A stretch of DNA of 64,000 nucleotides from Ophelia neglecta (taxonomy: Eukaryota): the NCBI GenBank assembly GCA_965285935.1, contig OZ260661.1, positions 125,550,001 through 125,614,000 of the forward strand. Direction: 5' to 3'. Made by a program: the position numbers and the translations under genes. Shown piece after piece: positions 1,550 to 62,542 of this stretch. Below the pieces are notes generated by a model. The model made no database searches, was not told the DNA's origin, and saw only the letters and a program-made list of their open reading frames with translations. The first letter of the stretch is position 1. Each line of letters begins with the position of its first letter.

Positions 1550-2081
1550 CTGGGGCCACATACTCAACGCCTACACTGTGAAAATGTACTGAACGTACTG
1601 GGTTGTGCATTGACTTCACTAAATCTTGTATGAGTGAATATGTAAAAATGCCGGCAAACACAGACAGCATAATATACACCAAATTAAGGCTCGCTCGTAA
1701 GCATCGTTTTCGGAAGGGGTCTTCCTGGAGGTATATGTCGTCCGGGTCATCCCCTTTCAACGCCTTTCTGTGTGTGTTGAACCAATAACATTCTGTACAA
1801 CGTTGGCCATTTTTCTTTGAGTTCTGGTCTTCTACACACTTTTGTTTACTGAGCTTAGGGTTAAGGTAGAAGGTTCTGGTTTTATCGTTCCCTGAACTGT
1901 GACATGGATTTTTCTTTTTCTCCGTCGGAAGTCCATACTCACAGGACTGTTGATGATAATTCCTTTCTTCTAGGGCTAGCTCGTTTTCACAATTTGACAA
2001 AACAGAGTCGGTATCAAACGAGCACGTTTTATCCATGGCAGATGAGCGAGGACTTTTGTCCTCTGTGACAGACGTAGACAT
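1550..2081 (-). CDS. PACC1: PAC/TMEM206-like proton-activated chloride channel, variable N-terminal+TM1 exon A (partial CDS, continues after splicing)
   Basis: ORF 1542..2081 contains RKRCLRASLNLVYIMLSVFAGIFTYSLIQDLVKSMHNPVRSVHFHSVGVEYVAPG, matching human PAC TM1/post-TM1 as I recall it (VYRTITDFREKLKHPVMSVSYKEVDRYDAPG). It ends at CCAG|GTGAGT (GT at 1549-1548); 532 nt = phase 1. Start could alternatively be the GCCATGG Met at 2036. Confidence 0.85.
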
Positions 2082-2257
2082 AGAAAGTCAATACGGAACA
2101 AAAACCATAGAGCTAGCTTGCAGCCTCCCTTCTCCAAGTGTGACTATTTTGACAGTACCTTGTCCTAAAGCGTAAGTCCTGGCAGTGTCAAAGGAAAACG
2201 TCTTTTGGTGACTGTCCCGATCGTGGATAACGCTTCAAACCACCCCCTGCGCACCTT

Positions 2258-2366
2258 GCTCAATTGCGCGGCACACAATTCTGATAACACCGCTATCAAC
2301 AACACCAGCCTCTAAATTACTTACGTACCACCAGCCCAGCAATCAAGATGTGTGTTATCAAGTCCA
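2258..2366 (-). other. Upstream homology block of exon A (shared with B, C, D and the 29.9 kb orphan)
   Basis: Plus strand GCTCAATTGCGC..ACAA..CCGCTATCAACAACACCA..TAAATTACTTACG aligns with 13098-13164; GTGTGTTATCAAGTCCA resembles ATGTGTTAGTAAAGTCCA near 62577-62594; TAACACCGCT recurs at 22929-22938. Confidence 0.6.
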
Positions 2367-12402: not shown

Positions 12403-12883
12403 CTGGTGCCACGTATTCCTCGTCTATTCTGTGATAATGTATTGAACGCACCGGATTGTCCATCGACCTTACTAAATCCTGTATTAGCGAATATGTAAAG
12501 ACACATGCAAACACAGCCAGAAGAATGTACACTAAGTTAAGGCTGGCCCGTGAACATCGTTTCCCTAAGGGATCATCCTCGAAATAAATGTCGTCCGTAT
12601 CTAATTCTTGCGGTGTGTTCCGGCGCCTTTTAAACAAAACACATTCTGAGAAATAACCTCCACTCTTATTGGTTGTAGTTTGTTCCGTGGCCTTATGTTT
12701 ATTGAGTTTTGAGGTAAGATAGTATGAACGGATTTTATCCTTAGCAGGACGCGTACTGGCAGTTGGCATTTCTTCTCTTGGAAACCTTTCAACGCTGGAT
12801 TGATGGCAAATTCCTCTTTGTTCTACCGAATGCCCAATATGGTCGGATGACAAAATATCATCCAACGAACGTGCTCCGTTCAT
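12403..12883 (-). CDS. PACC1: PAC/TMEM206-like channel, variable exon B (partial CDS)
   Basis: ORF 12395..12883 has KRCSRASLNLVYILLAVFACVFTYSLIQDLVRSMDNPVRSIHYHRIDEEYVAPG; donor CCAG|GTGAGT (GT at 12402-12401); 481 nt = phase 1. Confidence 0.85.
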
Positions 12884-13097
12884 GATGGAAATGCGTTTGA
12901 ATATGTCATTTGTGGAAGCCTACAGGCATGGAGAGCCCGAGTGTGTTATCACAAGTCCATCAGCAGAAATGGCCAGATGCGGTGGGAGAGACAGTAGCAT
13001 CCCAGGTCGCTTTCACCTCCGACCTGGGCCGGTTACGTGAGTGGCCTGTTGATGACTGATCCTGTATCTGGATCTATACCAGCCTTTTCCGGCTGTC

Positions 13098-13164
13098 GCT
13101 CAAGTGCGCATTAAACAACGCTCACAAGCCGCTAGTCAATAACACCATCTATAAAATTATTTCG
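13098..13164 (-). other. Upstream homology block of exon B
   Basis: GCTCAAGTGCGC..ACAA..CCGCTAGTCAATAACACCA..AAAATTATTTCG is collinear with 2258-2325. Confidence 0.6.
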
Positions 13165-22092: not shown

Positions 22093-22588
22093 CTGGTGCC
22101 TCGTATTCGTCCTCTACGATGTGATAATGAATGGAACGTACCGGATTGTGAAGTGACGTCACAAGATCTTGTATGAGGGAATATGTAAATACAGCAGCAA
22201 ACAGAGCCATCAAAATGTACACTACATTAAGACATATGTGTGAAAAACGCTTCTGCAGAGGAATATATTCTACGTTGAATTCATCAGGGTTATCGTCTGA
22301 TTCTGCATTCCGGAGAACGTCTACACAAGGAAATCCCAAACAAAATTTCTTTTTTCTCTTTGAAGCATTGCAGTTGGCTGACACATTACGATCGGATATT
22401 GGGTTAGAAAACATAGTTTTGATTTTGTCTTTCTTTTTGTCAAGCACTGGTTGGACATCGTCAGACAGTATTTTCTCCCCAAACGTCTCTTGCATGTGTT
22501 TCCTCTGGCTTCTCACACCTTCTGTGTATTGTTGATCACCGCATTTTTGTGAAATACTTGTATTCTCCACCGAAGACATCTGTTTCAT
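22093..22588 (-). CDS. PACC1: PAC/TMEM206-like channel, variable exon C (partial CDS)
   Basis: ORF 21971..22588 has KRFSHICLNVVYILMALFAAVFTYSLIQDLVTSLHNPVRSIHYHIVEDEYEAPG; donor CCAG|GTAGGT (GT at 22092-22091); 496 nt = phase 1. The ORF tail beyond APG is intron read-through. Confidence 0.82.
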
Positions 22589-24814
22589 TCAGGTGTGCCC
22601 GAAGTCTTGTTTCCTTTTTCTGTTAGATCGCAAAATGCTCGTTGCCAATTTCTGCAGGGACCTGGTGGTTTTGCAACCTGCCCCGCACTGGTGCCTACCA
22701 AGCGCGACTCTGTGTTTCGTCCTCAGGGCCGTTGCCACGATATGGATCAAACTATCACACTAACCTAGATACTAAATACTAATTTACGTGTAATAACCTA
22801 CAGACGGTGCTCACCTCGAGAGTACGAAGTGTACACCAAGTTAGAGCATATGCGAGGCACGCGCTGTAATAAACGTATTACTCATGACACAACAAACTTC
22901 AGTGGCTAACTGGGCTAGCATTTCGATTTAACACCGCTTCGAAGTCTAGCTGCAAATTACTGTTCCTCGCTTCACATCGATCTGATCAACAATGTTGAGA
23001 GAACGGCACCACTGGCCTCCGAAAAGATAGAAATAAGTCGGGTATTCTTGTGTATACAAATATAATGTTACTGTGTGCCTTAAAAAGTCCACTCTGCTTT
23101 TAAATGTGGAGCAGGGGTTTATTGCCCCACATAACACAAGGACCACTTCTGCTATAAAACTACATTATATTGCTGTAAACATCATTCCAAAATGCACGTT
23201 TTATCAGCACTGCTAACCTATTCTATCTCGATAGGATACCCAATGGTATTTGGGTCACACAATGTTGAATTGGGGGTTATTTCCATGAGCTTGCGGTGTG
23301 GTCATGTGTGATGTTCATATGGTTGATGAAAAGATGACAAATGAAGTAAGTATAGTATAAGCAACAGGTGGTTCGTTGAACAGCATTGTGACAACACAAG
23401 GACATGAACAACCTATCATTTCACTTGATGTAATTTAATAGATTTTGGCCTTAAAGATGTGCTCATAAGCAAACGACACAATACTTTCGTTTAATTGAAC
23501 ATACTTATCAACGACAATGTATTTTCTCCTTAGTTTAGTTCTACGATGCGAGCCAAATGTGTTGTAAATCTTTCCCTAAAAATAAGCCTAAGTGAAAATA
23601 AATAATGGTAAGATTACCCTTATAATAATACCGCGTGTGCATGTATTAAACGTGTCTTGTACCTGTTCTCGCTTGTGATGAGTACCAATGCCATGTTTTT
23701 TTTTATTCTTATACTGTACTATAAGTAATATTATGTGCTAACAGTGGTCCCTTCTATATAAAAGTAGTACAGCAACAGATTCAGCAAATAATATGAAAAG
23801 GTATTAATCACATGGCTGCTATAATATGTATCTCAGGTATAATGGCTTACGCAGGGAATTTTTTTCTGTGAATATCGCCGGCTGTTTTTTTGTGGTAATT
23901 TGCACACCAAATGAATTGTACATGAACATTGATGCCACATGCAGAAAGTTACATAAGTATCTGTTTAAAGTTCAAACCCCGTGACGCGGGAGATTCATAG
24001 CGATATGTATTTTATTAAGAATCCGAATGATTCATATGTTAGTTCTTATATCTTCTACTCATACAAAGAGGTTTATCAAGCGACACAAACCTATATCTGT
24101 GATTAATCCTCAGCAAAACCCCACGTCATACAAGCGCCATGGTTCTGAAGGTGAATTTTCCCCGGAATGGAGCATGTCGGGTTTGTTATAAACGCGGCGT
24201 GAAAGGTCCAATTATTATATTTTAATGGGCGTTTGTTAGTATCATGTAAATCTTTTCTCCCATAGTCTGAAGGCAAAGACGTTAGTGAGGGCATTAACAC
24301 ATGGTTATAGCCAACGCTATCTGCTCTCGCCAGAGATTCGAAATATTCGTGACCTCAGTGCAGCTACATTTGTGAAGACCATTACAGCCGAAACCCAACT
24401 CATAAAGATAACAAGAATAAATGGAAAATCTCTTATCAGGTTGTCATATCCTGGGGTCACATCCGGCCACGGGTCGTGCATTAGTATAGCAACATGTGGT
24501 TCAAACGTTGACAGTTTATTAAATTTTCACACCAAAATTATTTTATTTTCCGGGACATTTGTCTGAGTGAACAAAGGGAGTATATAATCGGACATCAGGG
24601 ATAGACTTGAGGGGTATCAATGATCTTTCGTACTACAGTAATCTTTGGTCCACGAAAACGGCAAGTGATATACCGACTAGGCATGTATAGGACATCTCCG
24701 TCGGGACTTCTTTGGATAAGGAAATAATTGGTTGCTTCAAAAACGTACAAAAACTATATATTGTGAAACTATGCTTTAAAAATATGTTAAAGATAGCATT
24801 CGAATGTAATTTAA

Positions 24815-61794: not shown

Positions 61795-62542
61795 CTGGAG
61801 CGTCGTAGTCATCGACCCTATGGTAGTGTATGGAGCGCACTGGATTATTCATTGACCTCACCAAATCCTGTATGAGTGAATAGGTGAATACTGCAGCAAA
61901 TAGTGCAAGCAGGATGTAGACAATGTTAAGACATGCGCGCGTGCAACGCTTCCGGAAGGGATCCTCCTGCATGTATATATCATCCGGGTCCTCTTCTTGG
62001 GGTTTCTTTCGGCGCCTTTTTAAACAGGGACATTCATTGCTGAATCCACCACTTTTTTTTGAAGGCTTTTCTTCAGCAACGCTTCGACGATTCAGTCTAG
62101 GCTTGATATAAAAAGTTTTGAATTTGTCTGACGTTGCAGGAATTTGACTAGTACCTTGTCCGGTATCTGTTGGAATGCCGTTTGGTGGTGTTATTGGTTC
62201 AGATATATCTTGTGGATGCTCACTGAGATTTTCTAACCCCTCTGTTCTTTCCATGCCTCCTGGTCGAGGAGCGTTAGCCGTGTCCAGGGAGTGTGTCTTG
62301 TCCATACTGGGCGTCCTTGGGCCTCTGGTCTCCGTGTCCCAATAGGGAACAGAACACTGTTTCCTCAGGGCTAACTTCCGGCGTCCTTTGAGAGTGGTAG
62401 CTAATAATGGGGGCGGCCGGGTCACTCGCAGCGGAGTACTCTCCTCGTGCGGAGTACTCTCCTCGTCCGAATCAGAAGCAGGGTCCTTGGCTAACTGGCC
62501 TGGGTCCGGACTCTCCTCACACAGCCACCGGTTCTCCGCCAT
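61795..62542 (-). CDS. PACC1: PAC/TMEM206-like channel, variable exon D (longest N-terminus, most similar to vertebrate PAC; partial CDS)
   Basis: ORF 61757..62557; first ATG at 62542 (AAAATGG context); RKRCTRACLNIVYILLALFAAVFTYSLIQDLVRSMNNPVRSIHYHRVDDYDAPG; donor CCAG|GTAAGG (GT at 61794-61793); 748 nt = phase 1. Confidence 0.88.
62431..62466. repeat. Perfect 18-bp in-frame tandem duplication inside exon D
   Basis: GCGGAGTACTCTCCTCGT x2, encoding EESTPH-EESTPL. Confidence 0.9.

What the first reader, a model, noticed from the sequence alone, without database searches (positions are those of the whole stretch)
1550..1720. The variable part of the cassettes covers the pH-sensing/gating neighbourhood, suggesting tunable, combinatorial trimers
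Seen: TM1 and YSLIQDLV..NPVRS(I/V)H(Y/F)H are nearly invariant despite many synonymous changes, but titratable residues differ. Before NPV: H (A), D (B), H (C), N (D). Before APG: SVGVEYV (A), RIDEEYV (B), IVEDEYE (C), RVDDYD (D). Established: in human PAC, H98 (KH98PV) and acidic residues E107/D109 of this segment are implicated in proton sensing. Inference: isoforms could have different activation pH, and 4 subunit types allow 20 trimer compositions.
Basis: partly seen in the sequence, partly recalled or inferred. Interest (0 to 1): 0.7.

Follow-up and report, generated by a model that had tools for sequence, protein, structure and literature searches.

The report
Four-headed invertebrate acid-gated chloride channel
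A marine invertebrate's gene for an acid-gated chloride channel (PAC family) has four alternative front-end exons ahead of one shared back half, so it likely makes four channel versions that share the pore and main acid sensors and probably differ more in where they are made and sent than in the acidity that opens them.

Summary
The structure is real. Four PAC/TMEM206 exons (cytosolic tail, TM1, first extracellular strand) lie in tandem, each ending in a phase-1 donor. A single intact constant region lies 8.5 kb beyond exon A, outside the window. Their core is under purifying selection (pN/pS 0.16), and they arose within this lineage. E107 is acidic in no cassette, and its human partner E249 is absent. 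Reported primary sensors (E181, E257, E261; also H130, D269) and the pore helix lie in the shared part. The loop varies between cassettes no more than between comparable homologues (3-4 of 7 versus 3.55), although A and B carry unusual residues. The tails differ most (14-32% identity). Best reading: alternative 5' exons, like ASIC1a/1b or sDscam, for separate expression and trafficking, with minor gating tuning. No RNA run was listed, so expression, promoters and heterotrimers are untested.

The parts
1550..2036 (-). Cassette A: ATG to phase-1 donor; 162 codons (tail about 116 aa, TM1, beta1, loop). A second in-frame ATG lies 15 codons upstream.
1557..1607 (-).
2201..2322 (-). Non-coding block shared with B, 165-286 nt upstream of A's ATG; candidate promoter or 5'UTR element (inferred)
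   Evidence: score 58 against a null maximum of 43 in 1500 draws
12403..12883 (-). Cassette B: 160 codons, phase-1 donor
13045..13162 (-). Non-coding block shared with A
22093..22588 (-). Cassette C: 165 codons, phase-1 donor; longest branch; the only tail with a YxxL motif
61795..62542 (-). Cassette D: 249 codons, phase-1 donor; most conserved, ancestral-like copy with 79 extra N-terminal codons
62558..62587 (-). Consensus branch point and AG acceptor ending 15 nt upstream of D's ATG, suggesting a non-coding exon further upstream (inferred)

Best explanation
This is one PAC/TMEM206 chloride-channel gene in which the first coding exon (cytosolic tail, TM1, strand beta1) is present four times ahead of a single constant region, and each copy is likely spliced to that region as an alternative, giving four isoforms predicted to share the pore helix and the main proton sensors and to differ chiefly in expression and trafficking, with at most secondary tuning of gating. 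Shown: four open exons with in-phase donors, one intact constant region, purifying selection, origin within this lineage, and the sensor and pore positions in the constant part. Inferred: D is the ancestral copy. A, B and C are partial duplicates that lost about 79 N-terminal codons, start at the equivalent of D's second Met and probably gained their own transcription starts. The very different tails, as for the two human N-terminal variants, would set surface versus endosome location. Changes at positions 94, 107, 109 and 112 (mainly A and B) may shift desensitisation or pH50 modestly. Co-expressed isoforms could form mixed trimers because the extracellular domain and TM2 are identical.
For: Four copies and one constant set in this locus; no further copy in 224 kb. 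All joins open: 415/413/418/502 aa. The exon model matches the annotated Lineus protein P0013 across the junctions (185 of 307 identical). Core pN/pS 0.16. A neutral 170-codon exon stays open in 28 of 4000 simulations at 0.3 substitutions per site, 0 of 4000 with indels, 125 of 4000 at 0.2 without indels. The upstream remnants of D's N-terminus in A and C did acquire stops. Cassettes plus one relative form a clade, 100/99; D end branch 0.07, A 0.46, B 0.22, C 0.89. Tails are 14-32% identical, TM1 to AP 67-84%. Human N-terminal variants differ in trafficking (PMC12901492; PMC7869721). E181, D257, E261, H130, D269, K288 and R319 lie in the constant region. Fish PACs with Asn or Gln at 98 and without E249/D297 still give proton-activated currents (PMC10529583).
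Against: There is no transcript evidence, so exon use, promoters and tissue patterns are untested. Tail divergence may be mere low constraint (pooled pN/pS 0.71), and only C has a YxxL motif, so the trafficking role is by analogy. The loops of A and B are atypical: only 1 of 35 homologues scores lower, which fits selected gating differences. D has an acceptor just upstream of its ATG, and A and B have candidate acceptors, which also fits internal, mutually exclusive exons. No invertebrate PAC recording was found in the searches, so proton gating itself is assumed.
Confidence: 0.55

Rival explanations
1. One reading: the cassettes were kept because their TM1-hinge and loop residues give each isoform a different activation pH or desensitisation, and heterotrimers multiply the range.
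For: The cassette includes human positions 91, 94, 98, 107 and 109, where mutations shift pH50 modestly or change desensitisation. Position 94 is K/R/T/R, and E94K/E94R speed human desensitisation. S107 (A), I107 (C), V112 (A, B) and H97 (A, C) occur in none of 35 homologues. The A and B loops rank below all but 1 of 35. [quoted passage not shown]
Against: H98 = invariant Asn and E107 is never acidic. The partner residues E249, E250, D289 and D297 are not acidic here. Loop differences of 3-4 of 7 match 62 homologue pairs of similar core divergence (mean 3.55). Cassette variability tracks homologue entropy (Spearman 0.47, p=0.0006). A is equally atypical in TM1 (1 of 35), so its divergence is general. 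C and D loops lie within the normal range. Only 17-18 extracellular residues vary, against a far larger part in ASIC1.
Confidence: 0.22
2. One upstream promoter and non-coding exon; the four exons are mutually exclusive internal exons chosen by splicing, not by separate promoters.
For: D has a consensus branch point and AG 15 nt before its ATG. A (-26) and B (-36) have pyrimidine-rich AGs just before theirs.
Against: C has no candidate acceptor near its ATG by the same filter, and D's own acceptor also fell below that crude filter. No shared or complementary selector sequence was found between the introns downstream of the donors. A and B share a conserved upstream block that could be a promoter.
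Confidence: 0.13
3. Only D is used; A, B and C are decaying duplicate exons.
For: A, B and C have long branches and lost D's first 79 or so codons. No A/B/C counterpart was found in other species (5 hits, none closer to A, B or C than the D-like P0001).
Against: All three keep open frames and in-phase GT donors despite near-saturated synonymous sites. A-B, A-C and B-C core pN/pS is 0.17-0.33. Neutral survival is 3% or less per exon in simulation. The one listed allelic difference in A's coding part is synonymous.
Confidence: 0.08
4. Assembly artefact: four complete tandem genes whose constant halves were collapsed.
For: None found.
Against: Contig depth over the constant exons equals that over cassette A in three DNA runs of one sample (about 18-29, 31-47, 8-11 versus 31, 34, 11). 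No constant exon lies between the cassettes.
Confidence: 0.02

Closest known systems
Vertebrate PAC / TMEM206 / ASOR (PF15122; PDB 7JNA, 7JI3)
   Same: Two-TM layout and exon-ending APG motif. H130, E181, E261, D269, K288 and W304 are kept, with a basic residue at 319. Human PAC also has N-terminal splice variants that differ in trafficking.
   Different: The human variants insert an exon into one tail and keep one TM1. Here the whole tail + TM1 + beta1 exon is quadruplicated. H98, E107, E249, E250, D289 and D297 are not conserved.
ASIC1a/ASIC1b (Deg/ENaC trimers, structurally similar to PAC)
   Same: One gene gives variants that differ in the N-terminal part and share the C-terminal part; pH50 differs slightly, 6.20 versus 6.02 (PMC11335189 passages).
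   Different: Cation channel with two variants, and residues 1-186 differ. Here there are four variants, and only 17-18 extracellular residues vary. That the ASIC1 difference comes from alternative first exons is recalled, not checked.
Chelicerate sDscam and vertebrate clustered protocadherins (tandem 5' cassettes + constant exons)
   Same: Tandem variable 5' cassettes upstream of one constant region (PMC4835542 abstract).
   Different: Those are adhesion receptors with tens of cassettes and shown promoters. Here there are four cassettes of an ion channel, promoters are unproven, and nothing points to a recognition code.
Other lophotrochozoan PAC-like proteins (Lineus longissimus XP_064632728, Capitella, Ridgeia, Lamellibrachia)
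   Same: 60-67% identity to the D isoform core; same Asn98 and basic 107 pattern.
   Different: The two Lineus isoforms differ only by an N-terminal extension. Three short metagenome loci (1.3-14 kb) show one front exon each. No cassette array was seen elsewhere, but the spans are too short to exclude one.

Membership tests
PAC/TMEM206 channels | Sequence match to PF15122 and solved PAC structures | tested here: met
   Cassette D 32.6 bits (cut-off 27); A-C 18.8-24.5, below cut-off as fragments; two constant exons 44 and 58 bits; PDB hits 1e-6 and 1e-13
PAC/TMEM206 channels | Two TM helices flanking a large extracellular domain, intact reading frame | tested here: met
   Predicted isoforms of 413-502 aa without stops, colinear with P0013 and human PAC
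PAC/TMEM206 channels | Basic selectivity residue at 319; sensors E181/E257/E261 | tested here: met
   R319, E181, D257 and E261 in the constant region. Position 257 is Asp, and a human Asp substitution there was reported dead, so the equivalence is imperfect.
PAC/TMEM206 channels | H98 and the acidic cluster E107/E249/E250/D289/D297 of human PAC | tested here: not met
   N98; S/R/I/R at 107; L249, M250, N289, L297. This is not family-defining, since several fish PACs lack part of it and still gate.
PAC/TMEM206 channels | Proton-activated, outwardly rectifying Cl- current from a trimer | not testable with these tools
   Needs electrophysiology
Tandem 5' cassette genes (protocadherin/sDscam type) | Several homologous 5' coding cassettes in tandem, one constant region, same splice phase | tested here: met
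Tandem 5' cassette genes (protocadherin/sDscam type) | Each cassette has its own promoter | tested here: inconclusive
   Shared upstream block in A and B only; acceptor-like sites also present
Tandem 5' cassette genes (protocadherin/sDscam type) | Each cassette is spliced to the constant exons in transcripts | not testable with these tools
   No RNA holder listed; the runs laid cover introns like DNA
ASIC1a/1b-type tuned channel variants | The variable part changes pH dependence; subunits form heterotrimers | not testable with these tools
   Sequence tests give no excess loop divergence and mildly atypical A and B loops

The most novel reading that the evidence does not exclude
A protocadherin-like cassette array in an ion channel: four promoter-linked front ends give cell-type-specific PAC subunits that co-assemble into up to 20 trimer compositions, with graded acid threshold, desensitisation and surface/endosome targeting. 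It would also be a natural experiment on how PAC gates without H98 and the vertebrate acidic cluster.
Probability: 0.2. Interest if true: 0.75.

Novelty: new variant of a known kind. Interest (0 to 1): 0.5.

Why it matters
PAC has been studied almost only in vertebrates, and its proton sensor is disputed among at least three models. This locus supplies four naturally selected TM1/hinge variants on one identical extracellular domain and pore. It keeps E181, D257, E261, H130 and D269 and lacks H98 and most of the acidic cluster, so recording the four isoforms tests those models and the role of the TM1 hinge directly. A four-cassette 5' array was not found described for this family in the searches made.

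Tried and rejected
RNA support: no RNA holder listed. The three runs laid are contigs of one sample that cover introns and show no splice joint; this is no evidence for or against expression. A/B/C orthologues in other species: none among 543 candidates; word-based search and gene-calling limits make this weak. Cassette arrays in metagenome contigs: 3 loci, too short. Selector or docking elements in the introns: no shared block between donors' downstream regions. Canonical sorting motifs: YxxL only in C, no acidic dileucine in any tail. JC-corrected dS was undefined for many pairs (saturation), so pN/pS is quoted; positive selection was not testable with four sequences. The first null for the upstream block included self-overlaps (4 of 300) and was redone without them (0 of 1500). 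One search mislocated the last constant exon and was redone. No structure or complex was predicted, because full-length isoforms exist only as joined sequences. Earlier findings of the scan: three look-ups, nothing returned. H98 as the variable residue was rejected. Collapsed assembly was rejected. Supplementary files were not opened: the pH50 table and S10 alignment of PMC10529583 were seen only as legends and may bear on the residue-level claims.

Full report
OBSERVATION. A six-frame scan finds the motif four times, all on the minus strand: A (Tyr of YSLIQ at 1640), B (12493), C (22183) and D (61882). Each lies at the end of a 160-249 codon open frame that stops at APG followed by a GT donor in phase 1. 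The segments match PF15122 (D above the cut-off, A-C below it as fragments) and solved PAC structures.

GENE ANATOMY. The window is G000:C1:125,550,001-125,614,000 of a 762 Mb genome; a search with cassette A's core returns only these four places. The family search finds one set of downstream exons 7-13 kb beyond the window start and one separate, compact paralogue on C8. The constant region has four exons (75, 229, 145 and 312 nt; the first ends in a GC donor) and encodes 253 residues without a stop. Joined to A, B, C or D it gives 415, 413, 418 or 502 aa. tblastn over 224 kb finds no further cassette and no constant exon between cassettes. The model is colinear with the annotated Lineus longissimus protein P0013 (185 of 307 identical) and unnamed P0039 across the junctions. 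The closest named homologues are annelid and nemertean (72-81% on the last exon), so the host is probably a lophotrochozoan, likely an annelid (inference). Contig depth in three runs of one sample is similar over the constant exons and cassette A, which argues against a collapsed assembly. Of 10 listed allelic differences checked in constant exons 3 and 4, 9 are synonymous and one changes the last codon; the tables showed only the best-supported rows.

ARE THE CASSETTES FUNCTIONAL? Pooled over six pairs, pS is 0.68 and pN 0.11 for TM1 to the end of beta1 (pN/pS 0.16); for the loop it is 0.40 and for the tails 0.71. A neutral exon of this size stays open in 125, 28 or 3 of 4000 runs at 0.2, 0.3 or 0.5 substitutions per site without indels, and in 4, 0 and 0 with indels. 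The parts of A and C homologous to D's codons 32-79 lie upstream of their ATGs and contain stops, an internal control for decay. In a tree of 40 rows and 84 columns, the four cassettes and one unnamed relative (P0001, 67% identical to D over its length) form a clade (100/99), and A+B group (95/85). End branches are D 0.07, B 0.22, A 0.46 and C 0.89. So D is ancestral-like, and A, B and C are shortened, faster-evolving duplicates of this lineage.

RESIDUE MAPPING (human numbering from ungapped alignments to 7JNA). H98 aligns with the Asn of NPV, invariant in all four cassettes and Asn in 28 of 35 homologues. The variable H/D/H/N is K97, which in human PAC belongs to an outer-leaflet PIP2 site (PMC9876566 passages). 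Position 107 is S/R/I/R (K or R in 28 of 35 homologues); 109 is G/D/E/D; 112 is V/V/E/D; 94 is K/R/T/R; D91 is invariant. A, B, C and P0001 have one extra loop residue that 35 of 36 homologues lack. In the constant region H130, E181, E261, D269, R271, K288 and W304 are kept, 257 is Asp and 319 is Arg; 131 is Tyr, and 249, 250, 289 and 297 are not acidic. Position 297 is non-acidic in all 9 invertebrate homologues that cover it, and 289 is Asn in 8 of 9.

WHAT THE LITERATURE SAYS ABOUT THESE SITES. PMC9351481 (parts 1-3 of 8 of the text): H98, H130, H131 and D269 act together; D91A, E94A and E107A give modest shifts. PMC8809534 (passages and the proton-sensing section): the pairs E249-E107, E257-D289 and E250-D297 are the sensor, and H98 is not primary. 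PMC10529583 (passages and a supplement legend): E181, E257 and E261 are primary, and fish PACs with Asn/Gln98 or lacking E249/D297 still give proton currents. PMC9779784 (passages): H98R, E107R and D109R reduce, and E94R/K and D91R increase, desensitisation. PMC8605177 (passages) lists H98, E107, H131, E224, D289 and D297. Under two of these models, most or all surviving sensor residues are shared by the four isoforms. The pair model has lost a partner in each of its three pairs.

IS THE VARIATION TARGETED? From 55 stored proteins I dropped 14 without the anchoring motif and 5 duplicates or artefacts, leaving 36 homologues. They are mostly unnamed and may include paralogues; 35 with the standard loop length were used for column statistics. 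Cassette pairs differ at 3-4 of 7 loop positions with 5-12 core differences; 62 homologue pairs with 4-9 core differences differ at 3.55 on average. Cassette variability correlates with homologue entropy (rho 0.47, p=0.0006). But A is just as atypical in TM1, and the C and D loops are ordinary. Most divergence is in the 114-204 residue cytosolic tails (14-32% identity, against 67-84% for TM1 to AP).

MECHANISM. Most likely each exon is used as an alternative first coding exon. A and B share a 125-nt non-coding block 165-286 nt upstream of the ATG (score 58; null maximum 43 in 1500), a candidate promoter or UTR element. D has a branch point and acceptor just before its ATG, so it probably follows a non-coding exon. 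A single-promoter, mutually exclusive scheme is not excluded. In human PAC an N-terminal YxxL motif sends the channel to endosomes (PMC7869721 passages), and an N-terminal splice variant that breaks it stays at the surface (PMC12901492 abstract and Discussion; PMC11324729 passages). By analogy, the divergent tails and separate starts would set where and when each isoform works, while pore and main sensors stay common. Only C has a YxxL, so this step is inference. Mixed trimers are plausible because the extracellular domain and TM2 are identical, giving 20 compositions (24 counting arrangement), but they need co-expression, which is untested.

COMPARISON AND NOVELTY. By sequence it is a PAC family member; by layout it works like ASIC1a/1b (PMC11335189 passages) and like tandem 5' cassette genes such as sDscam (PMC4835542 abstract and outline). 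Four literature searches (listings only, plus passages of the review PMC11059273) showed no paper on invertebrate PAC isoforms or such an array; the library lacks most subscription journals. Verdict: a real, apparently undescribed variant of a known gene design. Interest 0.5.

Noticed in passing
G000:C8:61,048,600-61,051,000 (L008), + strand: A second, compact PAC paralogue about 40-48% identical per exon, with a divergent TM1/hinge (no NPV motif) and the same GC donor after constant exon 1; no extra front exon was seen by tblastn in 70 kb
   Followed up: partly
G000:C1:125,542,995 (L014): GC-AG intron after constant exon 1, supported by colinearity with P0013; a metagenome homologue (L041) has no intron there
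   Followed up: yes
window 2201-2322 and 13045-13162, - strand: Conserved non-coding block upstream of cassettes A and B, absent before C and D
   Followed up: partly
window about 2090-2210 and 22590-22740, - strand: Decayed remnants of D's N-terminal codons upstream of A and C, with in-frame stops
   Followed up: partly
invertebrate homologues P0001-P0049: Invertebrate PACs mostly carry Asn98 and Lys/Arg107, lack an acid at 297 and have His318 next to the selectivity residue; their proton sensor must differ from two of the human models
   Followed up: partly
cassette tails, e.g. window about 1900-1925 (A): A short conserved tail motif (DK-x-K/R-T/S-F/Y/M) and juxtamembrane cysteines are kept in all four cassettes and P0001; role unknown
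   Followed up: no
L024 (about 8.9-10.1 kb beyond the window end), + strand: A 400-aa ORF, resembling a secreted polysaccharide deacetylase-like protein (recalled likeness, not searched), lies head-to-head with the PAC gene and bounds its promoter region; retroelement-like ORFs lie further on
   Followed up: no
L017-L023 (25-100 kb before the window start), + strand: Thr/Pro-rich mucin-like repeats with fibrinogen-like and EGF-like pieces, and three short similar single-TM ORFs (recalled likeness, not searched)
   Followed up: no
P0028: An unnamed database protein holds five tandem copies of the NPVRS...APG segment, probably a repeat translated by a gene caller
   Followed up: no
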